From contig OY969938.1 in the NCBI GenBank assembly GCA_963704755.1, forward strand, positions 1,920,001 to 1,952,000: 32,000 bases of DNA, read 5' to 3'. Source of the stretch: an uncultured Chloroflexia bacterium (lineage in GTDB: Bacteria; Chloroflexota; Anaerolineae; Anaerolineales; Anaerolineaceae). A program made the position numbers and the translations under genes. Positions 2,630-31,984 of the stretch are shown here, piece after piece. Below the pieces are notes generated by a model that was not told the DNA's origin, did no database searches, and worked only from the letters and a program-made list of their open reading frames with translations. Each line of letters opens with the position of its first letter. Position 1 is the first letter of the stretch.

Positions 2630-2692
2630 AAACCCTGAATTTGATGTGTTTGCGCGGGCTTCGCCCGCGCAAACACATCAAATTCAGGGTTT
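2630..2692. terminator. Perfect 30-bp palindrome (apex GGGC-TTC-GCCC) between convergent genes, a probable bidirectional terminator and repeat-family member
   Basis: aaaccctgaatttgatgtgtttgcgcgggc (2630-2659) is the exact reverse complement of 2663-2692. It lies between the stop codon of the + gene (2588) and the stop codon of the - gene (2773). Confidence 0.65.
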
Positions 2693-2772
2693 TCCCAGTC
2701 GGCTGAGTAGTTACAAAACTTCTATTATTGATACTTGGGGTAGTCCTCGGGGTTGAAAACCGAGCGACCGCT

Positions 2773-3933
2773 CTAACAATACTCTACCTGCACATCCTTA
2801 TTAAACCCGGTCAGCACGGCTGCGATCTGGTCGATCAGGTATCGCCGGATGGAGATGTTTTTGGGCAGGAGCGGGTTCTGATAGAACGGGTTGATCGACT
2901 GGCCGACCACGAACTGGACGGTATCGGCGACCAGCATCTCGCGCGCCAGCAGATAAGCCCCGTTGTTAGCCGCTTCCAGCCGGTCCAGGCTGCCGCCGGA
3001 CTTTTCCAGCAGGTCCAGCACGGCCGCCAGGGTCAGGATGCCCTCGGTGACCAGGTCGATGCCCGGCAGTTTGCCGATCGGCGGGACGGCGTCGTCCAGC
3101 GAGCTCATCACCGTCTCGACCTTGGTCTTCAGAAAACCGGCCACGATGTTGGCCGTGGTGCCGCCGCAAACTACCTTGCGGCCCTTAAAATCGAGCAAAC
3201 GATCCACGTAGACGTAATCAAAGCCGTTATCCAGAGGCGGGCCGCTAAACACCATCAAGGCGTTGCGTTTGCGCAGCAGCAGGCCCACAAAGGTCGCATC
3301 GTCGCCGGCCTTCCAGCCGTACAACTGGTTGGTCATGTTCATCACCCCGTTCACGATGGTGTGGGCGGCAAAGATACGGTTTTCGAAGCCGGCTTCGATG
3401 AACCTGGCCACGTTGTCCCAGCCCCAGCCGAAATTCATGGTCGTCCCCAGGCCGGCGTACAGCACGCCGTCACTGATCAGCCCGAGGAAATCGCCCATTT
3501 CCAGTTTACCTTCGGTCACCGAGATAGTCTTCTTGAGGATCTTTTCTTTAACACTCTCCAGCTTGACAATCTTGCCATTCTTCAGGTAAAAAGGCTCGGG
3601 GTTATCGAAGTTGATCACCCGGAAGGTGTCATCGAGATGGTTGACGATCAGGATGGTGAAGGTGGCGTAGGCGATATGGCGCTCTTTGCAGACCGGCAGC
3701 GTGCGAATGACCGTGTCGATCACCTCGCGCAGCTCGATCTTTTCACGCAGCATGGTGGTGATAATCTCGGTCGTCATGGTGGCCAGGATGTTGGCCTTGA
3801 CCCCGCTGCCCAGGCCGTCGGAAAGCACCACCGTGGTAATGCCGGCCGACTTGATCACCCGGACCTGGTCGCCGCACAGCTCCTCGCCGGACTTGTTCAA
3901 GTTGTGCTGGAAGATGTCCAGAAAGGCATCCAC
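2773..3933 (-). CDS. SpoIIE-type PP2C serine phosphatase with about 170-aa C-terminal domain of unknown function
   Basis: The PP2C metal-ligand motifs VLSDGLGSG, LISDGV and GDDATFVGL are present. The GTG start directly abuts the TAG of the upstream PAS gene, with AAGGAG 9 nt upstream. Size and architecture resemble the phosphatases found in hydrogenase regulatory loci (HfsC-like). Confidence 0.8.
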   Translation of the reverse strand: MDAFLDIFQHNLNKSGEELCGDQVRVIKSAGITTVVLSDGLGSGVKANILATMTTEIITTMLREKIELREVIDTVIRTLPVCKERHIAYATFTILIVNHLDDTFRVINFDNPEPFYLKNGKIVKLESVKEKILKKTISVTEGKLEMGDFLGLISDGVLYAGLGTTMNFGWGWDNVARFIEAGFENRIFAAHTIVNGVMNMTNQLYGWKAGDDATFVGLLLRKRNALMVFSGPPLDNGFDYVYVDRLLDFKGRKVVCGGTTANIVAGFLKTKVETVMSSLDDAVPPIGKLPGIDLVTEGILTLAAVLDLLEKSGGSLDRLEAANNGAYLLAREMLVADTVQFVVGQSINPFYQNPLLPKNISIRRYLIDQIAAVLTGFNKDVQVEYC

Positions 3934-4428
3934 CTAATACTGCTCCTTTTCGACCAGTTCCAGCAGCTTGAGCAGGCTGACCTTGGTTTCTGCGGTCGTT
4001 TCGCCCAGCAGGCTGGCGATCTTCTGGGCCACGCTCATCTGCTTATCCACCACCGCGTGAACCTTCAGGATCGTCTCGCGCTTGAGCACGTTCATTTCTT
4101 CGCGCTGCTTCCATTCGTGGGTCATATCCACCAGGATGCAGGCTACCACGCCTTCTTCGCGCACCGGGAAGATCACCCGCCGCAGGTAGAGCCCATACTG
4201 GGGATATTCCTTTTCCAGGCCGGCCATGGCTTCGCCGGTCTGCCAGACTTTCACGAAGTCGTTCATATCCCCCAGCCAATTCTCGGCCGGCTGGCCGAGA
4301 ATTTCATCGATGCTGCACTGGAACATCTTGCACAAGGCCGGGTTGACCACCTGGACCGTCATTTGCGGGTTGACCACCACCAGGCCGTTCGGGTCATAGT
4401 CCCACAGCAGTTCCCAGAGACTCTTCAT
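3934..4428 (-). CDS. Stand-alone PAS-domain protein with C-terminal helical tail
   Basis: The sequence has a PAS-like pattern (LLWDYDPNGLVVVNPQMTVQVVNPALCKMFQCSIDEILGQP ... VACILVDMTHEWK). A strong GGAGAGGAG Shine-Dalgarno site is present, and the gene is translationally coupled to the phosphatase. Confidence 0.65.
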   Translation of the reverse strand: MKSLWELLWDYDPNGLVVVNPQMTVQVVNPALCKMFQCSIDEILGQPAENWLGDMNDFVKVWQTGEAMAGLEKEYPQYGLYLRRVIFPVREEGVVACILVDMTHEWKQREEMNVLKRETILKVHAVVDKQMSVAQKIASLLGETTAETKVSLLKLLELVEKEQY

Positions 4429-4467
4429 GCGCGTATCTCCTCTCCTGAAGCACTTTCTGCGCCGGCG

Positions 4468-4794
4468 CTAGCGGCCCCAGCTTGATTCTACAGGCGAAGC
4501 ATTTTCCTTCAAAGTGATTTCCGCCCGCGGCTGAAGGCCCTCCAGGCGGGTGAGCACCTCATTGACCAATTTCTGGCGGACATTGCCCTTGTGAACGCCC
4601 AGGATCAGGTCGTCACCCAGTTTCAGCGCCACACCTTTGGCACACACGCCCAGGCAAAAGGCGCCTTTCAATTGCAGCCGGTTTTCCAGGTGATATTCGG
4701 CAAACAACGCCTGCAGTTCCGGCAGCACTTCATAGACACCTAACTGGTGGCAGGCGGACCCCATACAAATGTAAAGCGTTGGAAGATCATCCAT
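4468..4794 (-). CDS. Thioredoxin-like [2Fe-2S] ferredoxin (small NuoE-fold protein)
   Basis: The Cys pattern CMGSAC ... CLGVC (C-x4-C ... C-x3-C) is typical of thioredoxin-like 2Fe-2S ferredoxins found in HydABC/Hox-type loci. Confidence 0.7.
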   Translation of the reverse strand: MDDLPTLYICMGSACHQLGVYEVLPELQALFAEYHLENRLQLKGAFCLGVCAKGVALKLGDDLILGVHKGNVRQKLVNEVLTRLEGLQPRAEITLKENASPVESSWGR

Positions 4795-4822
4795 CGCAGC
4801 AACCTTTTTAGCAAATTGCTTT

Positions 4823-4867
4823 GGGTGCTTGTTTTGGGCGGCGAAACGCCGCCCAAAACAAGCACCC
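4823..4867. repeat. Perfect 21-bp palindrome (apex GGCG-AAA-CGCC) inside the operon, between the NuoF-like and ferredoxin genes
   Basis: gggtgcttgttttgggcggcg (4823-4843) is the exact reverse complement of 4847-4867. It lies in the 160-bp gap between 4794 and 4955. Confidence 0.75.
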
Positions 4868-4954
4868 TGAAATATCTTTTGGAATGGTTCTTATCTTACT
4901 TGGAAACTACTCAGGCAGGTTCAGTAGGGTGTTCCTTCTGCGCTGGCTGTGTAA

Positions 4955-6598
4955 TTACCTTACTTTCGAATAGACCGGGATCTCGACCGGAACCGGCTCG
5001 GTGTTGGCTCGAATTTTCTCCAGGTACTCCTCGCGGAAATAGCGCAGCGAGCTGAGGATCGGGTTGGGAGCCGCTTTCCCCAGGCCGCACAGGCTGGTCG
5101 AGGCCACCATTTCGCACAGGTATTCCAGCATCTCCAGGTCGGATTCGACCGCCTTGCCTTCGATAAATTTGTTCAACAAGTTGTAAATCTTCACATTTCC
5201 GATCCGGCAGGGGGTGCATTTCCCGCAGGATTCGTCCATGCTGAACTCCATGAAATACTTGGCCACGTTGAGGATGCTGGAAGTATCGTCGATGACGATG
5301 ATACCACCTGAACCCATGATCGAGCCCAAACGGTTCAAAGTTTCGTAATCCACCGGCGTATCCAGCAGCAATTCGGGGATGCAGCCGCCGGAAGGCCCGC
5401 CGGTCTGCACCGCTTTGAAGTCGTGCCCGTCCGGGACACCCCCGCCGATATCGTACACAATTTCACGCAGGGTGATGCCCATGGGTACCTCGATCAAGCC
5501 GGTGTTCTGGATCTTGCCGGTCAGGGCGAACACTTTTGTGCCCTTGCTCTTTTCGGTGCCGACCGAGGCAAACCAGGCTCCGCCATTGCGGATGATGTGC
5601 GGCACATTGGCATAGGTCTCGACGTTGTTGATCAGGGTCGGCCGGCCTTCCAACCCGCTGATCGAGGGGTAAGGCGGCCGCGAGCGCGGCGTGCCCCGGT
5701 CGCCCTCGATCGAATTGATCAGAGCCGTCTCTTCGCCGCAGACGAAGGCCCCCGCCCCCAGGCGGATGTCGATGTTGAACGAAAAGTCCGAGCCGGCGAT
5801 GTTCTCACCCAGCAGCCCGTTGCGTTCGGCCTGGCGGATGGCCACCTTGAGGCGTTTGACCGCCAGCGGGTACTCGGCGCGCACGTACACGTAGCCCTGC
5901 CGGGCCCCTACCGCATAGGCCGCGATGATCATGCCTTCCAGCACGGCGTGCGGGTCGCTTTCCAGGATCGAGCGGTCCATGAAAGCGCCCGGGTCGCCCT
6001 CGTCCGCGTTGCAGATCAGGTATTTCAAATCATTGGCCTGGTCGTGGACCAACTGCCATTTGGTGCCGGTGGGGAAACCGCTGCCACCGCGCCCGCGCAG
6101 CCCGCTGGACTTGATTTCATCTACAACCCCCTGCGGCGACATGGCCGTAATGGCTTTGACCTCACCCAGGTAGCCGCCCTGAGCGATGTAATCTTCGATC
6201 TTTTCCGGGTTGACTATGCCGGAATGTTTGAGGGTCACCTTGTGCTGGCGGGTGAAAAACGGTGTGGTGGTGTCGATGACCAGGCGTTTTACCGGCTGGG
6301 CATTGAGCGAATCGAGGATCTCCGGCACATCCTCGGGGGAGACGGTTTTGTAGAGGATGCCGTCTGGTTGAATCGAGACGATCGGCCCGGCCGCGCACAG
6401 CCCCATACAGCCCACCGGCTTGATGCCCACCACGTTCTCCAGGCCGCGCTGCTTGATCTCTTTTTCCAGGCTGGCGATAATCAGCGAACTGTTCGATGAA
6501 ACACAGCCTGTACCGGTGCACACGTGGATTACGTGCTGGTAGCGCGCCTGCATTTCGTGTTCCTTTTCAGCAATTTGGTTCAGCGTTGACTCATCCAT
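4955..6598 (-). CDS. NuoF/HoxF-like NAD(H)-binding flavoprotein (51-kDa family) with N-terminal thioredoxin-like 2Fe-2S domain
   Basis: N-terminal CTGTGC ... CMGLC. FMN site GLRGRGGSGFPTG. NADH site GAGAFVCGEETALI. N3 4Fe-4S motif SCGKCTPCR ... C. There is no C-terminal 2x[4Fe-4S] extension. The start overlaps the upstream gene by 8 nt. Confidence 0.9.
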   Translation of the reverse strand: MDESTLNQIAEKEHEMQARYQHVIHVCTGTGCVSSNSSLIIASLEKEIKQRGLENVVGIKPVGCMGLCAAGPIVSIQPDGILYKTVSPEDVPEILDSLNAQPVKRLVIDTTTPFFTRQHKVTLKHSGIVNPEKIEDYIAQGGYLGEVKAITAMSPQGVVDEIKSSGLRGRGGSGFPTGTKWQLVHDQANDLKYLICNADEGDPGAFMDRSILESDPHAVLEGMIIAAYAVGARQGYVYVRAEYPLAVKRLKVAIRQAERNGLLGENIAGSDFSFNIDIRLGAGAFVCGEETALINSIEGDRGTPRSRPPYPSISGLEGRPTLINNVETYANVPHIIRNGGAWFASVGTEKSKGTKVFALTGKIQNTGLIEVPMGITLREIVYDIGGGVPDGHDFKAVQTGGPSGGCIPELLLDTPVDYETLNRLGSIMGSGGIIVIDDTSSILNVAKYFMEFSMDESCGKCTPCRIGNVKIYNLLNKFIEGKAVESDLEMLEYLCEMVASTSLCGLGKAAPNPILSSLRYFREEYLEKIRANTEPVPVEIPVYSKVR

Positions 6599-7103
6599 GG
6601 TTAAGCCACTCCTCGATTTTGCCTTTCATCTCGTCCACTGACATTTTTCCGGTAATCTTGCCGTCCAGGATCATCACCGGGGCCAGGCCGCAGGCGCCCA
6701 GGCAGCGCGCAGTCAGGAAAGAAAGCTTGTTGTCGCTGGTGGTCTGGTTGGGATCCAGGCCGTATTTTTCTTTCATGTATTCGACGATTTTGTCGTTGCC
6801 TTTGACGTAACAGGCCGTGCCGGTGCACAGGATCAGCGAATGTTCGCCGGCCGGCTTGCTGGTAAAACTGTTATAGAAGGTCGCGACGCCGTAAACTTTG
6901 GCCAGGGGCACTTTTAATTCCTGGGCCACGTAAGCCATGGCGTCCGGGTCGATGTAGCCGAATAAATCCTGGATCACGTGCAGGGTCTGGATCAAGGACC
7001 TGGGCGAGAATTTGTTATTCTTCATGGTGACGTACACCAGTTTCCAGCGGCGGTCACTCAGGTCCACTTCAATGCGAGTATGGGTAGGGGTAGCGATGGT
7101 CAT
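6591..7103 (-). CDS. NuoE/HoxE-like 24-kDa-family [2Fe-2S] subunit
   Basis: CTGTACYVKG ... CLGACGLAPVM is the Complex I 24-kDa / 2Fe-2S thioredoxin-like signature. The 170-aa size is typical of HoxE/HydC. Confidence 0.88.
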   Translation of the reverse strand: MTIATPTHTRIEVDLSDRRWKLVYVTMKNNKFSPRSLIQTLHVIQDLFGYIDPDAMAYVAQELKVPLAKVYGVATFYNSFTSKPAGEHSLILCTGTACYVKGNDKIVEYMKEKYGLDPNQTTSDNKLSFLTARCLGACGLAPVMILDGKITGKMSVDEMKGKIEEWLNHG

Positions 7104-7146
7104 AACTTAAATTTCCTTTTGTTGGAAATAGAGATTTAAGAAGAAG

Positions 7147-7309
7147 AACCACAGAGCACACAGAGTTCACAGAGTAAAGAAAGAAAAGAAAAAATTTGCT
7201 GTTTGAAAGAACAATGGCTTAAAGTGGATCGGCCCGGTCTCCAGACCGAGGCCGCTCTTCTGCTCTGGTCAGAAAGACTAACCACGGAGGCACGGAGAAC
7301 ACGGAGAAG
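7147..7309. repeat. Composite dispersed element, copy A: triple heptad (CACAGAG x3), purine-rich spacer, 33-nt core, then triple heptad (CACGGAG x3)
   Basis: aaccacagagcacacagagttcacagag at 7147-7174. Core gatcggcccggtctccagaccgaggccgctctt at 7227-7259. aaccacggaggcacggagaacacggagaag at 7280-7309. The same core, and the CACGGAG triplet (one of its two flanking triplets), recur in the second copy at 23604-23753. Confidence 0.8.
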
Positions 7310-7382
7310 AATTTTTTGGGGAAGGAAATTGCACATGACAGCAAAATTTCCTACCATTTAATCTTTTCCATAAAAATCTTTC

Positions 7383-7409
7383 CTCCGTGTTCTCCGTGCC
7401 TCCGTGGTT
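7383..7409. repeat. Inverted copy of the CACGGAG triple heptad (27-bp perfect inverted repeat with 7280-7306)
   Basis: ctccgtgttctccgtgcctccgtggtt is the exact reverse complement of aaccacggaggcacggagaacacggag. The arms are separated by 76 nt. Confidence 0.85.
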
Positions 7410-7429
7410 GATTTCTCTTTGTTAATTTC

Positions 7430-8266
7430 CTACATAAATTTGTTGACGATTAACCGGAAAATATCGGTTTCGGTGATGATTCCGCACAGGCTGCGGGCGG
7501 CATCGAGCACCGGCAGGCTGTGGATCTTGTTCTCCTGCATCAGTGCGGCCGCCTTGGTGATCGGGTCGGTTTCGCTGACGGTGATTGGGGCGCTGGTCAT
7601 GATGAAGCGAGCCGGTGTGGTCAGGATCTGCTTGGTGATCTCGTACTGTCCCTCGGCCGCCGCGCCCGGCGCGGCGCTCAGCAAATCGGTGCGGGTGATG
7701 ATGCCCACCAGCAGCCCTTCCTGGACGACCGGCAGCGCACGGATGTTCTTGACCGCCATCAGGCGTTGAGCGTCCAGCAGGGTGGTGGCCGGGTGGATCG
7801 TCTGCACATCACGGCTCATGTAGTCGCTCACCAGGATCATCTCGCGCAGCGAGGGGAATTCTTCGATCAGCAGGCGGAACATGTCGGTCGAGGTGACGAT
7901 CCCGACCAGGTTTTTATCGTCCGCCACCACCGGCAAGGCGGCGATCTTGTTTTCCTCCATCATGCGGGCCGCTTTGGCCGCGCGGGCGTTGCCGTTGATG
8001 GTGATCACCGGGCGCGACATCAACTTTTCCAGTGGGGTGTTGCCCACCCGGCGGTATTGGTCCCAGGCGTCTTTCATCACGGTGGTCACATCGGCCCGCA
8101 GCAAATCGCGTTTGGTGACAATGCCCACCAACTGGCCCTCGTCCACCACCGGCAAAGCGCGGATGCTCTCCCGGTTCATGACGCGCAGCGCATCGTGCAA
8201 GCGCATGTGCGGGTCGGCTTTGATAATCTGGGTGGTCATCCATTGACGGACCAGGTCTTTTTTCAT
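7430..8266 (-). CDS. CBS-domain protein (four CBS repeats, two Bateman modules)
   Basis: Four repeats follow the pattern hhhLPVVDxxxLVGIITxxDLh (for example IRALPVVDEGQLVGIVTKRDLL and IHSLPVLDAARSLCGIITETDIF). A GGAGG Shine-Dalgarno site is present. Confidence 0.88.
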   Translation of the reverse strand: MKKDLVRQWMTTQIIKADPHMRLHDALRVMNRESIRALPVVDEGQLVGIVTKRDLLRADVTTVMKDAWDQYRRVGNTPLEKLMSRPVITINGNARAAKAARMMEENKIAALPVVADDKNLVGIVTSTDMFRLLIEEFPSLREMILVSDYMSRDVQTIHPATTLLDAQRLMAVKNIRALPVVQEGLLVGIITRTDLLSAAPGAAAEGQYEITKQILTTPARFIMTSAPITVSETDPITKAAALMQENKIHSLPVLDAARSLCGIITETDIFRLIVNKFM

Positions 8267-8410
8267 GATTGCCTCCGGTAAATAGGTACGGTCTTAATAT
8301 ACTCAGCCCCAGGCGATAGCGCATCGCCTGGGGCTTTAATTATCGCTAACCAAATGGTTGAAAAAAAGAGGGCCGCTCTCAATAAAATGGTTGAGAATAA
8401 ATGTTTTAAA

Positions 8411-8461
8411 TTCGAGATGGGGTAGTTTTTGGGCTTCGCCCAAAAACTACCCCATCTCGAA
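8411..8461. repeat. Perfect 24-bp palindrome (apex GGGC-TTC-GCCC)
   Basis: ttcgagatggggtagtttttgggc (8411-8434) is the exact reverse complement of 8438-8461. It lies between the permease stop codon (8466) and the start of the CBS gene (8266). Confidence 0.75.
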
Positions 8462-8465
8462 ATTT

Positions 8466-11214: not shown

Positions 11215-11367
11215 TGCCGTCCTTTCGCTCGATTAGATCATTACCGACACTTCCGTTTCAGGCGAGCGGTATTCTCAAATTTGGATATTTTCTCGTTTGC
11301 ATCGAGAAACCTTGATATCTTTAAAAGACTGTAACTTCTCTGGCCCATATTGAGTAGTCCCTGAATT

Positions 11368-20506: not shown

Positions 20507-20550
20507 ATGGTGATCTCCGCGGGCAACTCCCGCGGAGATCACCATTTTTT
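20507..20550 (+). terminator. Rho-independent terminator (17-bp perfect stem, 5-nt loop, T-tract)
   Basis: The arm atggtgatctccgcggg (20507-20523), the loop caact, and the arm cccgcggagatcaccat (20529-20545), followed by ttttt. It abuts the stop codon of the convergent nfeD-like gene. Confidence 0.85.
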
Positions 20551-21874
20551 ATACCTTTCTCACTTTCAACCGCAGTCCCTCTACCGCCACCACCTCGACC
20601 CGCGCACCTTCGGGGATCGAATCGAGCGGGTCGATGGTTTCGGCTGTCCACAGCTCGCCGGCAAGCTGGACGCTGCCCTGCGGTGCCAGGGAACTGCTGA
20701 CGGTTCCCTGCTGGCCGATCAGGGTAGCCCGGCCCATGACGGCCGGTGCATGCAGGGCTCGCCAGGCGAAGGAGATGATCACCATGAAGCTGGCGGCCAG
20801 AAAAGCCGCCATGCCCAGCACCAGCGGCACCGAAACGGCCGGGAAGCCGGGTGTGCGGGCGGAATTAAACAGGGTCAGCGCTCCGAAAACGAACGAAACG
20901 ATACCGGTGATGGTCAAGGCGCCGCTGGTATGCGTCTTAACCTCCAGGATAAAGAGTACAAATGCCAGCACGATGAAAATCAAGCCGAACAGGTTGATCG
21001 GCAGGATTCCGAAGCTGTACACCACCAGGGCCAGGCAGACCACCCCAATGAACCCGGCCACCCAGCCGCCGGGACTGGAGAGCTCGATCAACAGCGCCTG
21101 GATGCCGATCGAGAGCAGGATGAAGACGATATTGGGGTCGGTCAGGAGTTGTAAGGCATTCTCGACCAGGGTATGGGGCACTTCCTGGACCACGGCGTAC
21201 TGGGTGTGCAGGACCACCGGCTGGCCCTGGAGCTGCAAAGTGTAGCCGTCCAGTTGGCGCAGCAGGTCATTAACGTCGCTGGCGATAAAATCGGTCAGCC
21301 CAATTTTCAAGGCTTCATCCGAAGAAACCGCGGTCGCGTTCTGGATGGTATCCTCGGCCAGGGAGATCGCGGCCGGGGGGCGGTTCGCCGCCAGTGTGCG
21401 CACCGTGGCGCGCATGGCCTCTTTGGTTTTGGCTTCCTCAGTGGTATCGATGTTTTCCCCTTGCGAGCCGACCGGGCTGGCCGCCCCAATGATCGTCTCG
21501 GGCGCCATGGCGTTGGCCTGGCCTGCCAGGGTGATGACCGTGCCGGCCGATGCCGCCATGGCTCCGCGCGGGGTGACGTAAACCACCACCGGCACCGTGC
21601 TGGCGCGCAGGTCCTGGATGATGGTGCTCATCAAGGTAATCGATCCGCCTGGGGTATTCAATTCCAGAATGACCAGCTCGGCCCCATCCTGCTGGGCCAC
21701 GGTCAGGCCGCGTTCGATATAGCTGACCATAGCCGGCGTCAGCGGCCCGCTGGCGTCCATCAGCTTGACCAGCGGTGAGCCGCCCGTGGATTGGGCCGCG
21801 GCCGGCCGCAAGAGCAAACTGCCGGCCAGCAGGTTGAGAAAAACCAGGATGGCCACCCGGTAAAGGCGTTTCAT
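20549..21874 (-). CDS. NfeD-family membrane-bound serine protease (ClpP-class) with C-terminal NfeD OB-fold
   Basis: Signal/TM MKRLYRVAILVFLNLLAGSLLL, ClpP-like ILELNTPGGSI, central TM bundle and C-terminal GELWTAE...VEVVAVEGLRLKVRKV. I prefer the ATG at 21874 (GGAGG Shine-Dalgarno) over the track start at 22111. Confidence 0.82.
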   Translation of the reverse strand: MKRLYRVAILVFLNLLAGSLLLRPAAAQSTGGSPLVKLMDASGPLTPAMVSYIERGLTVAQQDGAELVILELNTPGGSITLMSTIIQDLRASTVPVVVYVTPRGAMAASAGTVITLAGQANAMAPETIIGAASPVGSQGENIDTTEEAKTKEAMRATVRTLAANRPPAAISLAEDTIQNATAVSSDEALKIGLTDFIASDVNDLLRQLDGYTLQLQGQPVVLHTQYAVVQEVPHTLVENALQLLTDPNIVFILLSIGIQALLIELSSPGGWVAGFIGVVCLALVVYSFGILPINLFGLIFIVLAFVLFILEVKTHTSGALTITGIVSFVFGALTLFNSARTPGFPAVSVPLVLGMAAFLAASFMVIISFAWRALHAPAVMGRATLIGQQGTVSSSLAPQGSVQLAGELWTAETIDPLDSIPEGARVEVVAVEGLRLKVRKV

Positions 21875-21932
21875 CGGTGTACCTCCGTAAATGCATCCAT
21901 ATTTAGGTACTGCTCCGGCCAGTTCAAAAGGT

Positions 21933-21991
21933 GCAGGTGTTTTTATTATTTTTTGTGTGCTTCGCACACAAAAAATAATAAAAACACCTGC
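21933..21991. repeat. Perfect 28-bp palindrome (apex GTGC-TTC-GCAC) in a divergent promoter region
   Basis: gcaggtgtttttattattttttgtgtgc (21933-21960) is the exact reverse complement of 21964-21991. It lies between the nfeD-like start (21874, -) and the GH1 start (22218, +). Confidence 0.8.
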
Positions 21992-22217
21992 TTTCTCCAT
22001 GACAGTTGAGTAGTTACCATATTTATATTTATTATAGCGGGTTCGCCAGGGGTTTAGCTCTTCCCGCCCAATCGGTTTCCGATCGGGGCAAGCGGAGAAG
22101 GGTCGAAGCACCGGCTATCCGGAATCTTTTGGGTTGGCAAACCCGCAAATACCAAACAGGATTAGATTAAAATAGAATCTATCCCGCCACAAAAACGTCA
22201 ACCCAAGGAGCAGCAGC

Positions 22218-23603: not shown

Positions 23604-23753
23604 AACCACGGAGGCACGGAGCGCACGGAGAAGAAGGAAGAGTTTAAGAAGAGGAAAGAAGTTTTAAGGCAGATCGGCCCGGTCTCCAGACCGAGGCCGC
23701 TCTTATTGGCTGATCAGATATTGCACCGCAGAGACGCAGAGGGCGCTGAGAAG
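23604..23753. repeat. Composite dispersed element, copy B: CACGGAG x3, purine-rich spacer, identical 33-nt core, then CGCAGAG-type x3
   Basis: aaccacggaggcacggagcgcacggagaag at 23604-23633. The core gatcggcccggtctccagaccgaggccgctctt at 23672-23704 is identical to 7227-7259. caccgcagagacgcagagggcgctgagaag at 23724-23753. A degenerate third core lies at 23914-23956. Confidence 0.8.
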
Positions 23754-24383: not shown

Positions 24384-24479
24384 AAGGACTTCTTATACAG
24401 GGAAAGCGCCAAGCAGGCTAAAACCTCCGCAGGATTCCTGGAAGTCCTTTGGCGGTATGAACAAATCAAAGGGGCGAAA

Positions 24480-25244: not shown

Positions 25245-25251
25245 GAATTTT

Positions 25252-26877: not shown

Positions 26878-27051
26878 CCTATACCTCTTTATTTGTAACT
26901 GCTCAATCCCACGGCCTGGAACTCAAATGCGGAGGCTAATTAGCACGCGCTTGAGGTGTTAGCTTTATTTATCATAGCGCTTTTCTATAAAAAATCTAAA
27001 AACCGTAATAATTATGTAATTAGTTGACATTGGCCGGGTATTTTAACGTTT

Positions 27052-27120
27052 AAAAGGGGGGTGTTTTTATTGTTTTTCGCGTGCTTCGCACGCGAAAAAC
27101 AATAAAAACACCCCCCTTTT
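27052..27120. repeat. Perfect 33-bp palindrome (apex GTGC-TTC-GCAC) with A4/T4 flanks
   Basis: aaaaggggggtgtttttattgtttttcgcgtgc (27052-27084) is the exact reverse complement of 27088-27120. It lies 11 nt downstream of the stop codon of the 27131-27427 ORF and upstream of the Mo-enzyme gene. Confidence 0.8.
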
Positions 27121-27130
27121 CCGAACTGGC

Positions 27131-27427: not shown

Positions 27428-27643
27428 AAACTCCCCCTAAAACCCGAAAAACCTATAAAATTAACCTAGTTTTTACTTAAATCGGTAAACATTTATGTTT
27501 GCCATCCGAAGCTAATATTAACCTTTTCGTTGTTTATTGGATCCAGGATAAGGGCCTGGCTTGCCTGATTGGAAAGCTCCTCAACAGGTTTTCTGCGGAT
27601 CCACTTTAAGGGGCAGCGATTATCCTTACAGGAGCGTTTTATC

Positions 27644-30600
27644 ATGCGGAATAATATTTTTTCTCCTACCCCTTACCGGTATCTCCTTATTGGTTTCTTG
27701 ATCGGCCTGCTTTTTCCCCTGGCTGTAACCCTGGTAGAAATTCCAACTACCGGGCAGCCCTTTTCTTGGGCTGCCCTGGCGGCAGTACAGAGCCGGCCGT
27801 CTTTATGGCTGGTGGATACGGCTCCCATTTTCCTGGGGGTTTTATTCAGCCGGCTGGGTTTGCAGCAAGCGCGCATCACCCTGGCGAAAAAAGACTGGGA
27901 ATTGACCTTCGATGCCATTTCCGACATGATCATTTTGCTCTCTATGGACGGTCGGGTGCTGCGCTGCAACCGGGCGGTGATCCAGTTCTTCAACACCTCC
28001 TTTCAGAAGGTGATCGGCAAGCCGGTGGAAAGCCTGATCCCGGGCGAACAGCCTGACCCGGCCTGGTACCAGCAAGGCGGTGAAGTCCACTTCCCGGCCC
28101 TGGAAGGCTATTTCGACGCCTCGGTTTATCCCGTCCAGGTGCAGGGGTTGCCCGACCGGCGCCTGTGCATCCTGTACAACATCACCGACCGCAAGAATGC
28201 TGAAAAAGAAATCATCCGCCAGAAACAATATTTCGAGGCCCTGGTGGATAACAGCCCGGCGGCCATTGTGGTGATGGATGTCCATCAACAGATCGTCTCC
28301 TGTAACCCGGCCTTCGAGCGTTTGTACGGCTACAAGTGCGACGAAATCATCGGGTCCGACATCGATTCGCTGATTACCACGCCCGAAACCTCGCGCGAAG
28401 CCACGGAAATCACCCGCCAGGTGATGAACAGCGCCGTCCACCGCATCGGCCAACGGCGCCGCAAGGATGGCTCGCCGGTGGACGTGGAAATTTTCGGTGT
28501 GCCGGTCTCGGTGGCCGGCGAGAAGATCGGCGTGCTGGCCATCTACCACGACATTTCCGAGCTGGTGCGCGCCCGCCAGGAAGCCGAAGAGGCCAACCGG
28601 GCCAAGAGCGAGTTCCTGGCTAACATGAGCCACGAGATCCGCACCCCCATGAACGGGGTGATCGGCATGCTCGAGCTGGCCCTGGATACCCAGTTGACCA
28701 ACGAGCAGCGCGAATACCTGGGGATCTCCCTGCAAAGCGCCGAGATCCTGCTGACCCTGATCAATGACATCCTGGACTTCTCCAAGATCGAAGCCAAGCG
28801 GCTGGTGCTGGAAAATATCGACTTCGACCTGCGCAATGCCGTCGAGGACGTCGCCTATTCGCTGGCCAAACGCTGCCAGGACAAAGGCCTGGAAATGGCT
28901 TGCCTGATCCACCCCGATTTGCGCCCGGACGTACGCGGTGACCCGGCCCGGCTGCGCCAGATCCTGGTGAACCTGATCGGCAACGCGATCAAGTTCACCC
29001 CCCAGGGTGAGATCGTCGTGCGCGTCGAGCCGGTTTCCAACACCGACAAGGACATGACCGTTAAATTCTCGGTCCAGGATACTGGCGTGGGCATCCCGCC
29101 TGATCGAAAGACCATGATTTTCGACCGCTTCACCCAGGCGGACAGTTCAACCACTCGCCGCTTCGGCGGCACCGGGCTGGGCCTGGCAATTTGCAAGCAA
29201 TTGGTAGACGCCATGAATGGAACGATCGGCGTGGAAAGTTCCGTCGGGGTTGGCAGTACCTTCTGGTTCACGGCCACCCTGCAAAAGCAGGCGGCAGTCA
29301 AAGAAAAACAGCCCCAACCTGAGTTCGAGCCGGTTGAGCTGAAAGACCTGCACATCCTGGGTGTAGATGATAACGCCACCAACCGCATGATCCTTGCCAA
29401 GATCGTCACCGGGTTCGGCTGCCGCATCGAGACGGCTGCATCCGGAGCCAAAGGCCTGGAAATGCTGCAAACCGCGGTCCGCACCGGCGATCCCTACCGG
29501 GTCGTCCTCCTGGATATGCAAATGCCGGGCATGGACGGTGAGCAAACTGCCCAGGCGATCAAAGATGACCCCACCATCCAGGATGTCAAGGTCGTCATTT
29601 TGACCTCAATCGGCCAGCAGGGCGATGCGGTCCGGCTGGAAGCGCTGGGCTGCTCGGGTTACCTGAACAAGCCGGTCAAACAACAAATGCTTTACGAGAC
29701 TTTACTGGCGGTGATGGGCCACAAGGGCGACCTGGGCAGCAATATGATTACCCGGCACGTGCTCTCGGAACAGAAACGCCAGGAACTGCGCCTTCTGCTG
29801 GCCGAGGACAACCCAATCAATCAGAAACTGGCCGTGGTCATCTTGCAAAAAGCCGGCTATTCGGTCGATACGGTCGAGAACGGCCGCCAGGCGGTGGAGC
29901 AGTGGCAAAAACGAGCTTACAATGCCGTGCTCATGGACGTGCAGATGCCGGAAATGGACGGCTTCGAAGCCACCCAGCAAATCCGCGCCCTGGAAGGCGA
30001 CCAGCGCCACACCCCCATCATTGCGATGACTGCCCATGCTCTGAAAGGTGACCAGGAGCGCTGTCTGCAAGCCGGTATGGACGATTACGTCTCCAAACCG
30101 CTCGACCGCCCGGGGTTGATGAGAACCCTGGAGCGCTGGACCCAGCCAAAAGCTGAAAACGCCGCCCTGAGCGAAGAAACCGGGCCGGCCGAGGTTGAAG
30201 ATTACTCCAGTGCAACCGAATCATTTGACTTCATCGAAAACGCCTTCGAAAGCGAAGGTGGCTTTTTCGGCGAAGAGGCCCCCGAGCAAACGAACGAACC
30301 GGCAGAGATACCGAGTGAAGATCTCGACCTCACGGCTGAAGACCTGCCCATCGACCTGACCTCCGCTCTGGCTCGCTTCGACAATGACCGGACCTTCTTC
30401 CTTGAAATGTGCCAGAGCTTTATCGACAATATCCCTGAGCGGATCAGCGACATCAAGAAAGCACTGGAAGCCGGGGACGCGAACACCTTCAGCCGACATG
30501 CCCACAACCTCAAGGGCATGTCGGCCAACTTCAGTGCCGATGCCGTTACCCACCTGGCCCGCCGGTTGGAAGAATTGGGCCGCGAGGATAACCTGGCGAA

Positions 30601-30685
30601 GGCTCCCCTGCTGATCGAACACCTGGAAAGCGAGGTCGTGCGATTGCGCGAGGCTTTCGTAGAAATCAAAACCCTTACCGATTAA
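27644..30685 (+). CDS. Hybrid sensor histidine kinase: TM region, PAS, PAS, HisKA, HATPase_c, REC, REC, Hpt
   Basis: H-box SEFLANMSHEIRTPMNGV, N-box LVNLIGNAIKFT, G-boxes DTGVGI and GGTGLGLAI. REC1 has ILGVDDNATN..LLDMQMPGMDG and REC2 has LLLAEDNPINQ..VLMDVQMPEMDG..DDYVSKP. Hpt has SRHAHNLKGMSANF. I prefer the ATG at 27644 (GGAG Shine-Dalgarno) over 27569. Confidence 0.9.
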   Translation: MRNNIFSPTPYRYLLIGFLIGLLFPLAVTLVEIPTTGQPFSWAALAAVQSRPSLWLVDTAPIFLGVLFSRLGLQQARITLAKKDWELTFDAISDMIILLSMDGRVLRCNRAVIQFFNTSFQKVIGKPVESLIPGEQPDPAWYQQGGEVHFPALEGYFDASVYPVQVQGLPDRRLCILYNITDRKNAEKEIIRQKQYFEALVDNSPAAIVVMDVHQQIVSCNPAFERLYGYKCDEIIGSDIDSLITTPETSREATEITRQVMNSAVHRIGQRRRKDGSPVDVEIFGVPVSVAGEKIGVLAIYHDISELVRARQEAEEANRAKSEFLANMSHEIRTPMNGVIGMLELALDTQLTNEQREYLGISLQSAEILLTLINDILDFSKIEAKRLVLENIDFDLRNAVEDVAYSLAKRCQDKGLEMACLIHPDLRPDVRGDPARLRQILVNLIGNAIKFTPQGEIVVRVEPVSNTDKDMTVKFSVQDTGVGIPPDRKTMIFDRFTQADSSTTRRFGGTGLGLAICKQLVDAMNGTIGVESSVGVGSTFWFTATLQKQAAVKEKQPQPEFEPVELKDLHILGVDDNATNRMILAKIVTGFGCRIETAASGAKGLEMLQTAVRTGDPYRVVLLDMQMPGMDGEQTAQAIKDDPTIQDVKVVILTSIGQQGDAVRLEALGCSGYLNKPVKQQMLYETLLAVMGHKGDLGSNMITRHVLSEQKRQELRLLLAEDNPINQKLAVVILQKAGYSVDTVENGRQAVEQWQKRAYNAVLMDVQMPEMDGFEATQQIRALEGDQRHTPIIAMTAHALKGDQERCLQAGMDDYVSKPLDRPGLMRTLERWTQPKAENAALSEETGPAEVEDYSSATESFDFIENAFESEGGFFGEEAPEQTNEPAEIPSEDLDLTAEDLPIDLTSALARFDNDRTFFLEMCQSFIDNIPERISDIKKALEAGDANTFSRHAHNLKGMSANFSADAVTHLARRLEELGREDNLAKAPLLIEHLESEVVRLREAFVEIKTLTD

Positions 30686-30706
30686 TCTCACTATAAAGGA
30701 GTTTCA

Positions 30707-31927
30707 ATGGCCCCTAGAATTCTCACAATCGATGACGAGCCCATGTACCACACCATGATCGCACGGGCGCTGGAACCCCTGAACTGTCAGATCAGCACTG
30801 CCGAAGATGGCACCCAGGGTCTGGCCATGGCAAGGAACCTCAAGCCGGACGTGATCATCACCGATGTCGTCATGCCGGATATCACCGGTTACGAGGTGAC
30901 CCGCCTGCTGCGCCGCGACCCCGAGTTCGCTCACGTGCCCATCCTGGTGCTCACCGCCCAAACCGGCTTGCAGGACAAGCTCAAGGCTTTCGAAGTCGGC
31001 GCGGACGATCACCTGACCAAACCTTTCGAGCCGGCCGAACTGGCCGCGCGGGTCACTGCCCTTATCCGCCGGGCCGAGGTCAATAAAGCCGCCGAGCCCT
31101 CCGCCGTGACAAAAGAAAAAGCCCGCCTGATCGCCCTGCACAGCTTGCGCGGAGGCACCGGCTGCTCCAGCATGGCGGTCAACCTGTCGGTGGCGCTGGC
31201 CAGTTTGTGGAAGAGCCCCACCATCCTGCTGGACCTGACCATGGTCGCCGGCCAGGTAGCCCTGATGCTCAACGCCACCCTGAAGCGCACCTGGGCGGAC
31301 CTGGCCCGCTTCAAGCAAAGCGATCTGGACATGCAGGTACTTTCCTCAATCGTTTTCCAGCACGAAAGCGGGTTGTCATTCATCGCCGCGCCGACCTTCC
31401 CAAGCGAAGCCGAGACTATCGATACCGAGACCCTGGCGACGGCGGTGCGTATTTTGCAGCAGCGCTACGATTACATCGTGGCCGATCTGCCGCACGACTT
31501 CAGCGAGATCAGCCTGCAGACTCTCGATCTGGCCGACATTGTCCTGCTGGTCGCCTCGCCCGACCTGGCCTCGCTGCGCGCCGTGGTTGCAGCCATGGAT
31601 ACCTATAAAAAATTAGGCTATCCCACCCAGCAGATCAAACTGATGCTGAACGCGACCTTCCCTAAATCCGGGCTGTCGAAGGACAAGATCGAATCCGCGG
31701 TCAAGATGCCCATCACCGTCACTGTGCCCTACACCCAGGAACTGTTCGTGGAAGCAATCAACCTGGGCATGCCGCTGGTTTTCGATAAACCGGAGGAGGC
31801 CGTCTCGGGTCTGCTGGAAGATTTTGCGTTTTATTTGAGCAAGGAAAGCCACAAAAAATCCAGGCCGCAAAACCCCAGTGACGCCTGGACGCGGGTCTAT
31901 AAACGCTATAACAGCCGCAAAAAATAA
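30707..31927 (+). CDS. Response-regulator receiver fused to a CpaE/TadZ-like (MinD/ParA-fold) domain
   Basis: REC has ILTIDDEPMYH..VITDVVMPDITGYEV..LTKPF. The MinD/ParA-like part has a deviant P-loop, SLRGGTGCSSMAVNLS, in place of KGGxGK[ST], then DYIVADLPHD (Walker B-like). AAGGAG Shine-Dalgarno site. Confidence 0.78.
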   Translation: MAPRILTIDDEPMYHTMIARALEPLNCQISTAEDGTQGLAMARNLKPDVIITDVVMPDITGYEVTRLLRRDPEFAHVPILVLTAQTGLQDKLKAFEVGADDHLTKPFEPAELAARVTALIRRAEVNKAAEPSAVTKEKARLIALHSLRGGTGCSSMAVNLSVALASLWKSPTILLDLTMVAGQVALMLNATLKRTWADLARFKQSDLDMQVLSSIVFQHESGLSFIAAPTFPSEAETIDTETLATAVRILQQRYDYIVADLPHDFSEISLQTLDLADIVLLVASPDLASLRAVVAAMDTYKKLGYPTQQIKLMLNATFPKSGLSKDKIESAVKMPITVTVPYTQELFVEAINLGMPLVFDKPEEAVSGLLEDFAFYLSKESHKKSRPQNPSDAWTRVYKRYNSRKK

Positions 31928-31931
31928 AAAA

Positions 31932-31984
31932 ACGAATTTGATGTGGTTGCCGGGGCAAAGCCCCGGCAACCACATCAAATTCGT
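31932..31984. terminator. Perfect 25-bp palindrome (apex GGGC-AAA-GCCC), a probable terminator and repeat-family member
   Basis: acgaatttgatgtggttgccggggc (31932-31956) is the exact reverse complement of 31960-31984. It begins 5 nt after the stop codon at 31927 and shares GAATTTGATGTG with the palindrome at 2630. Confidence 0.7.

What the first reader, a model, noticed from the sequence alone, without database searches (positions are those of the whole stretch)
2630..31984. Family of long perfect palindromes sharing a GC-TTC-GC (or G-AAA-C) apex
Seen: there are six intergenic palindromes with no stem mismatches at all. They are 2630-2692 (30 bp), 4823-4867 (21 bp), 8411-8461 (24 bp), 21933-21991 (28 bp), 27052-27120 (33 bp) and 31932-31984 (25 bp). 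Four have the identical apex (G/T)GC-TTC-GC(C/A), and all four show TTC rather than GAA on the + strand regardless of the orientation of flanking genes. The other two have an AAA apex. Only some of them sit where a terminator is expected, and most lack a U-tract. Established: functional intrinsic terminators typically have GC-rich stems of well under 20 bp followed by a U-tract. The complementary-strand apex GCGAAGC is the motif known from DNA biophysics as an unusually stable mini-hairpin. Inference: these may be a REP/foldback-type element family or products of a hairpin-templated copying process, possibly acting at the DNA level (cruciform or ssDNA hairpin) rather than only as RNA terminators.
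Basis: partly seen in the sequence, partly recalled or inferred. Interest (0 to 1): 0.7.

Follow-up and report, generated by a model that had tools for sequence, protein, structure and literature searches.

The report
Self-perfecting palindromic mobile-like repeats in Anaerolineaceae
The six perfect palindromes are real and are the cores of a previously undescribed family of roughly 110-base foldback repeats scattered between genes in some Anaerolineaceae bacteria, whose two arms appear to be kept identical by a DNA-level copying process that also flips the tip of the hairpin.

Summary
Observation confirmed: six perfect palindromes (21-33 bp stems, 3-nt apex) plus two decayed ones, where simulations give stems of at most 10 bp. 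They are not plain terminators and not chance. Two (2630, 31932) belong to a family with 12 further copies in three other Anaerolineaceae MAGs; 21933, 27052 and 1202 are diverged relatives. The full unit is about 110 nt: conserved outward-facing termini (GTAACTRCTCA...TGAGYAGTTAC), an imperfect shoulder, then a perfect core closed by GC-GAA/TTC-GC. The same termini bracket unrelated palindromic cores in another species. Arms within a copy differ about 10-fold less than arms of different copies, substitutions are mirrored as Watson-Crick pairs with almost no G.U, and between two samples of one species (~0.5% divergent) the only change in a 59-bp palindrome is TTC->GAA. That points to DNA-level arm homogenisation and apex inversion (template switching). 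Elements are lineage-specific: 6 per 32 kb here and 6 per 22 kb in one relative, none in ~120 kb from six others, and they occupy junctions that are 10-28 nt in relatives. Most lie just after stop codons, so a terminator or 3'-hairpin role is plausible but unshown. The mobilising enzyme is unknown.

The parts
2605..2714 (.). Complete family-A element: left terminus GTAACTATTCA (2605-2615), shoulder, perfect 30-bp palindromic core 2630-2692 (apex TTC), shoulder, right terminus TGAGTAGTTAC (2704-2714). Lies between convergent genes (ADP-ribosylglycohydrolase + stop 2588; SpoIIE-type phosphatase - stop 2773).
   Evidence: folds as one long hairpin, -76 kcal/mol as RNA; gene map
31932..31984 (.). 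Family-A core, 25-bp perfect palindrome, apex AAA; 5 nt after the stop of the response-regulator/ParA-like gene (31927). The right flank is cut off by the end of the window.
21906..22017 (.). Subfamily-B element: degenerate left terminus GGTACTGCTCC (about 21906-21916), perfect 28-bp core 21933-21991 (apex TTC), right terminus TGAGTAGTTAC (22007-22017). Lies between divergent genes (NfeD - start 21874; GH1 + start 22218).
   Evidence: (E about 1e-7 to model R1)
27043..27129 (.). Subfamily-B element: perfect 33-bp core 27052-27120 (apex TTC), flanked by AAAA/TTTT and the GAACTGGCC shoulder shared with 21933. It is 11 nt after the stop of a 98-aa minus-strand ORF with gene-like GC3 (0.71).
   Evidence: (E about 3e-8)
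1186..1283 (.). Decayed family-A-like copy: 25-bp core at 88% complementarity (1202-1254, apex TTC) plus right terminus TGAGCATTTAC (1273-1283); 32 nt after the glycosyltransferase stop (1170).
   Evidence: (E 4e-5)
4823..4867 (.). Perfect 21-bp palindrome, apex AAA, inside the NuoE/NuoF-like operon (NuoF stop 4955; next gene start 4794). This spacer is about 160 nt here but 10-12 nt in two relatives. Only a marginal match to model R1.
4903..4958 (.). Pair of termini (GAAACTACTCA 4903-4913 / TGTGTAATTAC 4948-4958) facing each other's complement with only about 34 nt between them: a possible core-less relic of another element beside 4823 (inference).
8408..8464 (.). Palindrome with a 24-bp perfect stem (27 bp with one mismatch), apex GGGC-TTC-GCCC, 2 nt after the stop of the ABC-2 permease gene (8466, minus strand). 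It shares the apex but not the arm sequence and is not recognised by model R1.
1448..1492 (.). Imperfect 21-bp palindrome (90%), apex TAC; weak match to model R1; possibly a decayed element.
26895..26905 (-). Solo terminus TGAGCAGTTAC, 18 nt upstream of the ATG of the molybdopterin oxidoreductase gene (start 26877).

Best explanation
The palindromes are the cores of a lineage-specific family of small (about 100-170 nt), non-coding, foldback (MITE/ERIC-like) repeats dispersed in the intergenic DNA of some Anaerolineaceae (Chloroflexota). Each unit has conserved 11-14 bp outward-facing termini (GGTAACTRCTCAGG ... CCTGAGYAGTTACC), an imperfectly paired A-rich/T-rich shoulder, and a 21-33 bp perfectly self-complementary core closed by a G+C clamp and a 3-nt apex (GAA/TTC, less often AAA/TTT). 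On one strand this gives the very stable GCGAAGC mini-hairpin. Shown: the family, its architecture, its patchy distribution, its occupation of junctions that are tight in relatives, mirrored substitutions, and one apex inversion between strains. Inferred mechanism: the core is kept perfect by a DNA-level arm-to-arm copying process, most likely intramolecular template switching on the hairpin during replication. That process converts a new mutation in one arm into a mirrored pair or erases it, acts most strongly near the apex, and can invert the apex. Inferred function: because most copies sit 2-140 nt after stop codons, and the hairpin is the same on both strands, transcripts from either direction would end in or carry a very stable hairpin (bidirectional terminator, 3'-end protector or RNase III site). 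This is probably a by-product or an exaptation, not the reason the elements exist. How copies spread (which transposase, if any) is unknown.
For: Family: the two-arm pattern found 7 loci in 3 other Anaerolineaceae MAGs, and a fuzzy search gives 14 copies in which left-arm and right-arm substitution counts are equal in every copy. Covariation: in the 26-bp core, 35 cells changed on both sides, 2 G.U cells, 5 unpaired cells, and 0/500 shuffles reach the observed score, whereas the flanks contain many G.U and mismatches. Arms within a copy differ by 0.50 per 26 nt against 4.90 between copies (4.14 within one genome). Superfamily: model R1 hits 27052, 21933, 1202 and L005:62-146 but none of L021's equally long perfect palindromes. 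Termini: TGAGTAGTTAC is enriched in the window (10 vs 2.2 expected), found exactly about 20 nt outside cores in L004, L005 and L007, mirrored on the other side, and brackets unrelated cores in L021 (16308/16480 and 19724/19823). Conservation stops right after GTTAC. Apex inversion: L021 16394-16396 TTC vs GAA in L022/L023, the only difference inside that palindrome at about 0.5% overall divergence. Apex orientation also differs among copies oriented by their C-type and T-type termini. Lineage specificity: perfect palindromes of at least 20 bp number 6 in the window and 6 in L021, and 0 in L001, L002, L003, L024, L025 and L034 (about 120 kb, including A. thermophila); the termini are absent from those same genomes apart from one lone 1-mismatch hit in L034. 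Insertion-like occupancy: the NuoF-to-next-gene spacer is 10-12 nt in L021/L024 and 160 nt here; the CBS-to-NuoE spacer is 28 nt (L024), 105 nt with a palindrome (L021) and 326 nt with another inverted repeat (window). Perfect copies also occur where no terminator is needed (21933; L008:2991). Published precedent for template switching perfecting inverted repeats and inverting spacers: PMC5941160 and PMC8604942 (abstracts). GCGNAGC mini-hairpin stability: PMC13037366.
Against: Only 32 kb of the source genome could be read; its 4.87-Mb contig is indexed but not retrievable, so genome-wide copy number is unknown. No target-site duplication is evident and no transposase with matching termini was seen, so mobility is inferred from distribution only. 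The apex flip was seen at one locus in three metagenome assemblies; mis-assembly of the apex or mixed populations cannot be fully excluded. Strong selection on an RNA or DNA hairpin could also yield mirrored changes. Palindromes 8408 and 4823 share only the apex style and are not shown to belong to the same family. No transcript data are available.
Confidence: 0.6

Rival explanations
1. They are simply this lineage's intrinsic (bidirectional, 'I-shaped') transcription terminators or mRNA 3'-stabilising hairpins, kept perfect by selection on the RNA helix. The sequence similarity between copies reflects local duplication or convergence.
For: Five of eight window elements and most MAG copies lie 2-140 nt after a stop codon, several between convergent genes. 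Short A/T tracts flank some of them (27052 AAAA...TTTT; 8408 and 31932 have T-runs on one strand). Relatives at about 70% identity use perfect 15-19 bp hairpins at gene ends.
Against: RNA selection tolerates G.U, yet the core has 2 G.U among about 350 cells while the flanks of the same elements have many. Perfect copies sit between divergent genes and inside a tight operon. Conserved termini 20-45 nt outside the stem, shared across species and across unrelated cores, have no role in termination. The elements are absent from six related genomes, which still terminate transcription. The apex orientation on the mRNA is mixed (GAA 4, UUC 5).
Confidence: 0.15
2. They are REP/PATE-type elements mobilised as single-stranded DNA hairpins by an HUH (Y1) transposase of the IS200/IS605-RAYT type encoded elsewhere in the genome. 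The perfect core would be the enzyme's hairpin recognition element and ...GTTAC the cleavage site.
For: No terminal duplication was seen. A hairpin-centred architecture with a sharply bounded, conserved ...TTAC end on both strands. Patchy lineage distribution as for REP/RAYT. From my own knowledge, IS608 cleaves and inserts at TTAC. PMC3733652 describes tyrosine transposases flanked by long TIR families.
Against: No Y1/RAYT gene appears in the window or in any fetched locus. The gene flanked by two copies in L008 is a GyrI-like/Cass2 protein. REP stems are 6-9 bp with a GTAG/CGTC tag abutting the stem (PMC3733652), unlike these. The symmetric ends are unlike the asymmetric IS608 ends.
Confidence: 0.15
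3. They are binding sites for a dimeric DNA-binding protein (operator, nucleoid or partition-type site), and the palindromy reflects protein symmetry.
For: The outer core positions (GAATTTGA-GTG--TG) are invariant across four genomes while the inner stem varies. One copy lies in a divergent promoter region.
Against: A 50-70 bp perfect palindrome is far longer than any operator. Protein sites do not require the variable inner stem to stay perfectly complementary, nor a stable mini-hairpin apex. Most copies lie at gene 3' ends.
Confidence: 0.05
4. They are sequencing or assembly artefacts (fold-back chimeras).
For: One contig (L022) ends in a short palindrome that looks like an assembly tip artefact.
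Against: The same elements occur in a complete genome and in independent short-read assemblies from NCBI, ENA, JGI and Logan, inside contigs, at identical positions in three samples. They are only 45-69 bp long, shorter than single reads.
Confidence: 0.02

Closest known systems
ERIC / Correia (NEMIS) / RUP-type bacterial MITE-like foldback repeats
   Same: About 100-170 nt, non-coding, an overall imperfect palindrome with conserved terminal inverted repeats, dispersed in intergenic and often transcribed DNA, conserved across related species, patchy between lineages, and able to form long RNA hairpins. From my own knowledge, Correia transcripts are RNase III substrates and can terminate or stabilise mRNAs.
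   Different: Here the central 21-33 bp are perfectly complementary in nearly every copy although they differ between copies. The apex is a fixed 3-nt GC-clamped mini-hairpin. No TA or other target duplication is evident. No cognate IS is known. There is no sequence similarity to those families (Rfam: nothing above threshold).
REP elements and REPINs mobilised by RAYT (GTAG/CGTC-tagged palindromes; PMC3733652)
   Same: Extragenic palindromic repeats, abundant in some lineages and absent from relatives, frequently just 3' of genes, with proposed roles in termination or mRNA stability.
   Different: REP stems are 6-9 bp, imperfect, and carry a GTAG or CGTC tag abutting the stem. These stems are 21-33 bp and perfect, and the conserved tag lies 20-45 nt away and faces outward. 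No RAYT was seen.
Template-switch (quasipalindrome) homogenisation of inverted repeats (PMC5941160; PMC8604942)
   Same: Arms homogenised to perfect complementarity, multinucleotide mirrored changes, and spacer inversion, all of which are observed here.
   Different: The published cases are mostly short (under about 15 bp), unrelated inverted repeats in Proteobacteria or yeast. Here the process appears to operate on a multi-copy element family with 21-33 bp arms, giving many natural replicates.
Intrinsic bidirectional terminators
   Same: A hairpin just after stop codons, some between convergent genes, with A/T-rich shoulders on either side.
   Different: Stems are 2-3 times longer than typical, the U-tract is mostly short or absent, the sequence is conserved between loci and species, termini lie outside the stem, and some copies sit in 5' or divergent regions. 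The window's ordinary terminator (20507-20545: 17-bp stem, 5-nt loop, T5 tail) looks different.

Membership tests
REP (repetitive extragenic palindrome, GTAG/CGTC superfamilies) | Short unit (20-40 nt) with an imperfect stem of about 6-9 bp (PMC3733652) | tested here: not met
   Cores have 21-33 bp perfect stems and the whole unit is about 110 nt
REP (repetitive extragenic palindrome, GTAG/CGTC superfamilies) | Conserved GTAG or CGTC tetranucleotide abutting one end of the stem | tested here: not met
   GTAG occurs only inside the T-variant terminus TGAGTAGTTAC, 20 nt from the core and in the opposite orientation; the C-variant (TGAGCAGTTAC) lacks it
REP (repetitive extragenic palindrome, GTAG/CGTC superfamilies) | Many extragenic copies per genome | tested here: inconclusive
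   All copies are extragenic: 5-8 in the 32-kb window, and 8 copies plus a truncated one in about 31 kb of pattern-selected CTOTU25342 loci. The whole genome could not be read
REP (repetitive extragenic palindrome, GTAG/CGTC superfamilies) | Cognate RAYT (Y1/HUH) gene flanked by the repeats | not testable with these tools
Bacterial MITE | Small non-coding unit bounded by terminal inverted repeats | tested here: met
   Units of 100-173 nt are bounded by GGTAACTRCTCAGG / CCTGAGYAGTTACC in five genomes; conservation ends at the termini
Bacterial MITE | Target-site duplication flanking each copy | tested here: not met
   No consistent direct repeat lies outside the termini in 8 copies; two near-matches (ATTAAA, ATCAAA) are offset by 1-2 nt and lie in A/T-rich DNA
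Bacterial MITE | Dispersed at non-orthologous sites with presence/absence differences between relatives | tested here: met
   Copies sit next to unrelated genes. Junctions that are 10-28 nt in relatives are 105-326 nt where they hold elements. Six related genomes have none
Bacterial MITE | Autonomous IS with the same termini | not testable with these tools
   Needs whole-genome sequence of the carriers; no plasmid or phage match
Intrinsic terminator | G+C-rich stem of about 5-15 bp followed directly by a U-tract | tested here: not met
   Stems are 21-33 bp. A run of at least 5 T in the tail is present only for 8408 (+ strand) and 31932 (- strand). The control terminator 20507-20545 meets the definition
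Intrinsic terminator | Located just downstream of a stop codon on the transcribed strand | tested here: inconclusive
   True for 1202, 2630, 8408, 31932 and probably 27052; not for 21933 (divergent) or 4823 (intra-operon)
Intrinsic terminator | Transcript 3' ends map to the hairpin | not testable with these tools
   No RNA data available
Integron attC site | Imperfect hairpin with extrahelical bases and R''/R' (RYYYAAC / GTTRRRY) boxes | tested here: not met
   Stems are perfect with no bulges. This was considered only because two copies flank a Cass2/GyrI-like gene in L008
Inverted repeat homogenised by template switching | Arm homogenisation, mirrored multinucleotide changes and spacer inversion | tested here: met
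   0.50 vs 4.90 differences per 26 nt; mirrored changes with almost no G.U; TTC->GAA as the sole change in a 59-bp palindrome between samples
Known RNA family (Rfam 15) | Match at or above a family's gathering score | tested here: not met
   0 matches in the window. Only far-sub-threshold hits to eukaryotic miRNA-precursor models, i.e. generic hairpins

The most novel reading that the evidence does not exclude
These are 'self-perfecting' hairpin elements. A dedicated or replication-coupled hairpin-templated copying reaction, nucleated by the GCGAAGC mini-hairpin on single-stranded DNA, continually resynthesises one arm from the other and flips the apex. The same single-stranded hairpin intermediate is what gets mobilised (for example by an HUH/Y1-type enzyme cutting at ...GTTAC). 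This would be a new class of bacterial foldback transposon whose sequence evolves symmetrically, and whose apex state could act as a heritable flip-flop next to promoters.
Probability: 0.2. Interest if true: 0.8.

Novelty: new variant of a known kind. Interest (0 to 1): 0.58.

Why it matters
Perfect inverted repeats are over-represented in bacterial genomes, and template switching has been proposed as the cause, mostly from short, unrelated repeats. This family offers many homologous copies per genome with long arms, variable inner stems, an imperfect periphery as a built-in control, and a visible apex inversion between strains. It is therefore a natural replicate system for measuring arm-to-arm conversion and spacer inversion in the wild. 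It also adds a dispersed-repeat family for Chloroflexota, a phylum in which I found no such elements described in the held literature. In addition, it warns annotators that these hairpins, which break assemblies and create spurious ORFs, are elements and not simple terminators.

Tried and rejected
(1) Retrieving the source genome: exact-protein look-ups failed for three window proteins and for the 100%-identical P0001, and the protein-anchored genome scan found nothing, so no genome-wide census was possible.
(2) Subfamily-B two-arm pattern in metagenomes: only low-GC, unrelated T-rich hairpins, so there is no evidence for subfamily B outside the window.
(3) RAYT hypothesis for the gene flanked by two copies in L008: it is GyrI-like/Cass2, which also led me to consider and reject attC.
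(4) Replichore/strand rule for the apex: GAA lies on the G-rich strand in 14/20 cases (9/15 outside the window), which is not significant, and the apex is mixed within single loci.
(5) TGAGTAGTTAC as a promoter: it also faces into gene 3' ends (2605-2615 and 2704-2714 lie between convergent genes), and its spacing to any -10-like hexamer is inconsistent. I reinterpreted it as the element terminus.
(6) My first gene call of a 585-aa + ORF at 2728-4485 was wrong. Synteny and Pfam show three minus-strand genes there.
(7) 'Typical of all Anaerolineaceae': rejected, because A. thermophila and five other relatives lack them.
(8) Plasmid and phage collections and Rfam: no relatives.
(9) Target-site duplications: none consistent.

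Full report
OBSERVATION.
- 2630-2692 (30 bp, TTC)
- 4823-4867 (21 bp, AAA)
- 8411-8461 (24 bp perfect; 27 bp with one mismatch over 8408-8464, TTC)
- 21933-21991 (28 bp, TTC)
- 27052-27120 (33 bp, TTC)
- 31932-31984 (25 bp, AAA)
In 30 first-order Markov simulations of the window, the longest perfect stem was 10 bp. As ssDNA the elements fold at -29 to -41 kcal/mol, with z-scores of -10 to -16. Rfam at gathering thresholds and ARAGORN find nothing in the window.

ORGANISM AND GENE MAP. The GH1 and NuoF-like proteins are 100% identical to proteins on a 4.87-Mb NCBI/ENA contig that I could not retrieve. The next-best homologues are 75-77% identical, and named relatives are Anaerolineales, Bellilinea, Anaerolinea thermophila (70%), Ornatilinea and Longilinea. 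The window therefore comes from an Anaerolineaceae (Chloroflexota) genome without close sequenced relatives.

Pfam plus conserved synteny (CBS, NuoE-like, NuoF-like, a 95-aa thioredoxin-like ferredoxin, a 163-aa PAS protein, and a SpoIIE phosphatase) corrected my first gene map. The 585-aa + ORF at 2728-4485 is spurious; the real genes are on the minus strand. NfeD starts at 21874.

With the corrected map, the elements sit as follows:
- 2630 lies between convergent genes.
- 8408 is 2 nt after a stop codon, 31932 is 5 nt after one, and 1202 is 32 nt after one.
- 27052 is 11 nt after the stop of a 98-aa ORF with gene-like GC3 (0.71).
- 4823 lies inside an operon.
- 21933 lies between divergent genes.
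The window also has one ordinary bidirectional terminator for contrast (20507-20545: 17-bp stem, 5-nt loop, T5 tail).

A DISPERSED FAMILY. The arms of 2630 and 31932 agree at 20 of 23 positions, and those of 21933 and 27052 at 22 of 25. Every difference is mirrored in the other arm. A two-arm pattern (GAATTTGATGTG-N15-35-CACATCAAATTC; chance expectation about 0.1 in the collection, by my calculation) hit seven loci in three other Anaerolineaceae MAGs. A fuzzy search then gave 14 copies in four genomes. In every copy, the left and right outer arms carry the same number of substitutions.

On an alignment brought into one register, the 26-bp core is almost 100% Watson-Crick paired. It has 35 cells changed on both sides, only 2 G.U cells and 5 unpaired cells (four at the two apex-proximal pairs, one at the outermost pair). 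No shuffle out of 500 reaches the observed covariation, and all slid registers collapse. In the flanks of the same elements, G.U pairs and mismatches are common.

Arms within a copy differ by 0.50 positions per 26, against 4.90 between copies (4.14 within one genome). A covariance model built from the 14 copies also recovers:
- window 27043-27129 (E about 3e-8)
- window 21919-22005 (2e-7)
- window 1186-1270 (4e-5)
- L005:62-146 (1.6e-8)
- L010:3221-3292 (8e-4)
It recovers none of the equally long, equally perfect palindromes of locus L021, and not 8408. The hits therefore reflect shared sequence, not just hairpin shape.

THE FULL UNIT. The 11-mer TGAGTAGTTAC is enriched in the window (10 matches with up to 2 mismatches, against 2.2 expected). 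It lies 12-19 nt to the right of 1202, 2630 and 21933. The exact 11-mer also occurs about 20 nt to the right of family cores in L004 (twice), L005 and L007. A mirrored copy, usually TGAGCAGTTAC, faces outward on the left side. Sequence conservation stops immediately after ...GTTAC.

The unit is therefore about 110 nt: GGTAACTRCTCAGG, about 8 nt, GAAAAAG-n-CCC, [perfect core], GGG-n-CTTTCAC, about 5 nt, CCTGAGYAGTTACC. It folds into one long hairpin whose periphery is imperfect and whose centre is perfect. The same termini bracket palindromic cores of unrelated sequence in another species (L021 16308-16480, 173 nt; L021 19724-19823, 100 nt). Apart from one lone 1-mismatch hit in L034, they are absent from the genomes that lack long palindromes.

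No consistent target-site duplication is visible. No transposase gene appears in the window or in the fetched loci. The 158-aa gene flanked by two copies in L008 is GyrI-like/Cass2.

DISTRIBUTION AND INSERTION-LIKE BEHAVIOUR. I counted perfect palindromes of at least 20 bp in loci fetched through protein anchors, which are unbiased for palindromes. The window has 6 in 32 kb and L021 has 6 in 21.7 kb. L001, L002, L003, L024, L025 (the same locus checked in eight samples of one species) and L034 (A. thermophila AP012029) have none in about 120 kb together.

At orthologous junctions:
- The NuoF-to-next-gene spacer is 10-12 nt in L021 and L024. It is about 160 nt in the window, where it holds palindrome 4823 and a terminus pair.
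- The CBS-to-NuoE spacer is 28 nt in L024, 105 nt with a 29-bp palindrome in L021, and 326 nt with a different inverted repeat in the window.
In the MAG loci, most family copies lie 10-140 nt after a stop codon, often between co-directional genes, sometimes between convergent genes, and at least once (L008:2991) between divergent genes.

DNA-LEVEL SYMMETRISATION. L021, L022 and L023 are the same locus from three samples of one species. L021 and L022 differ at about 0.5% of sites. Inside the 59-bp palindrome at L021:16366-16424, the only difference is the apex, TTC in L021 against GAA in L022 and L023. That is an exact reverse complement, with identical arms and flanks. A neighbouring palindrome is perfect (25 bp) in L022/L023 but carries a substitution and a 2-nt indel in L021.

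Among family copies oriented by their C-type and T-type termini, the apex reads GAA in some and TTC in others, so apex inversion has recurred. Relative to transcription the apex is mixed (GAA 4, UUC 5). Relative to local GC skew it is 14/20, or 9/15 outside the window. The window's 5-of-5 TTC on the + strand (p about 0.06) is therefore best read as chance.

Arm homogenisation, mirrored multinucleotide change and spacer inversion are the published signatures of intramolecular template switching between inverted-repeat arms (PMC5941160, abstract read; PMC8604942, abstract seen). The apex complement GCGAAGC belongs to the GCGNAGC class of extraordinarily stable DNA mini-hairpins (PMC13037366) and would favour fold-back nucleation; that last step is inference. 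The gradient from perfect core to imperfect shoulder is what conversion tracts starting at the apex would produce (also inference).

INTERPRETATION. The best-supported reading (about 0.6) is a lineage-specific MITE/ERIC-like foldback repeat family whose cores are kept perfect by DNA-level arm-to-arm copying that also flips the apex. Because most copies sit just after stop codons and the hairpin is identical on both strands, they probably also act as bidirectional terminators, 3'-end protectors or RNase III targets. That function is inferred only.

Rival explanations:
- Plain RNA-selected terminators (0.15). Against this: the near-absence of G.U, the conserved termini outside the stem, copies in divergent and intra-operon positions, and absence from relatives.
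- HUH/Y1-mobilised REP-type elements (0.15). In favour: no duplication, hairpin-centred architecture, and a sharp ...TTAC end reminiscent, from my own knowledge, of the IS608 target. Against: no such gene was seen, and the REP definitions are not met (PMC3733652).
- Protein-binding sites (0.05).
- Artefact (0.02).

COMPARISON WITH KNOWN SYSTEMS. The elements work like ERIC, Correia or RUP-type foldback MITEs and like REPs in where they sit. They show the evolutionary signature described for template-switch-homogenised inverted repeats. They are not REPs sensu stricto: the stems are 21-33 bp rather than 6-9 bp, and no GTAG or CGTC tag abuts the stem. They are not attC sites, not canonical terminators, and not members of any Rfam family. 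They have no relatives in the plasmid or phage collections. I found no description of such elements in Anaerolineae or Chloroflexi in the held literature.

LIMITS.
- Only 32 kb of the source genome could be read.
- Copy numbers in the MAGs come from pattern-selected loci.
- The apex flip rests on one locus in three metagenome assemblies.
- Mobility is inferred from distribution.
- No RNA data are available.
- Family membership of 8408, 4823 and 1448 is unproven.

Noticed in passing
window 7271-7418 and 23606-23619: A different inverted repeat (53-nt arms, 81% complementary, 42-nt spacer) built from CACGGAG-type heptads fills the CBS-to-NuoE spacer. The 14-mer CCGTGCCTCCGTGG from it recurs just after the GH1 stop codon. 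This is possibly a second repeat family.
   Followed up: partly
window 2728-4485 (+) versus 2773-4794 (-): A 585-aa + strand ORF with no Pfam hit is a shadow ORF. Synteny with four relatives and Pfam show three minus-strand genes instead (95-108-aa thioredoxin-like ferredoxin, PAS protein, SpoIIE phosphatase).
   Followed up: yes
window 2773-8266; L021, L024, L034: In A. thermophila the CBS/NuoE/NuoF (HoxE/F-like) genes are followed by HoxU/Y/H hydrogenase subunits. In the window and in two relatives they are followed by a small ferredoxin-like protein, a PAS protein and a SpoIIE-type phosphatase. The diaphorase module seems rewired to a signalling output.
   Followed up: no
window 11331-11361: Two terminus-like motifs (GTAACTTCTCT and TGAGTAGTCCC, 2 mismatches each) face outward only 9 nt apart between the hydrolase and TetR genes. 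This may be a core-less relic or an excision footprint of an element.
   Followed up: partly
window 26895-26905: A solo terminus TGAGCAGTTAC sits 18 nt upstream of the ATG of the molybdopterin oxidoreductase gene, immediately before its Shine-Dalgarno-like AAGAGG. Element ends may contribute 5' leader or promoter sequence.
   Followed up: no
window 20507-20545 and 8305-8335: Ordinary-looking hairpins are also present: a 17-bp stem with a 5-nt loop and T5 tail between convergent genes (a canonical bidirectional terminator), and a 13-bp stem upstream of the CBS gene. They serve as internal contrasts to the long palindromes.
   Followed up: partly
L022 1-31: The contig ends in a short palindrome unrelated to the sequence at the same place in L021. 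This is probably an assembly tip artefact, or an assembly break caused by the 30-bp palindrome present there in L021 (2860-2922).
   Followed up: partly
All palindromic cores (window and loci): The 5' arm is G/T-rich and the 3' arm A/C-rich on both strands, so neither arm can pair with itself. Whether this reflects selection for clean folding or a mutational bias is unexplained.
   Followed up: no
L005 6009-6315 (-): The permissive Rfam scan found a tRNA, plus a T-box-leader match just below its gathering score (86.3 vs 93 bits), next to a 667-aa gene. Neither is related to the finding.
   Followed up: no
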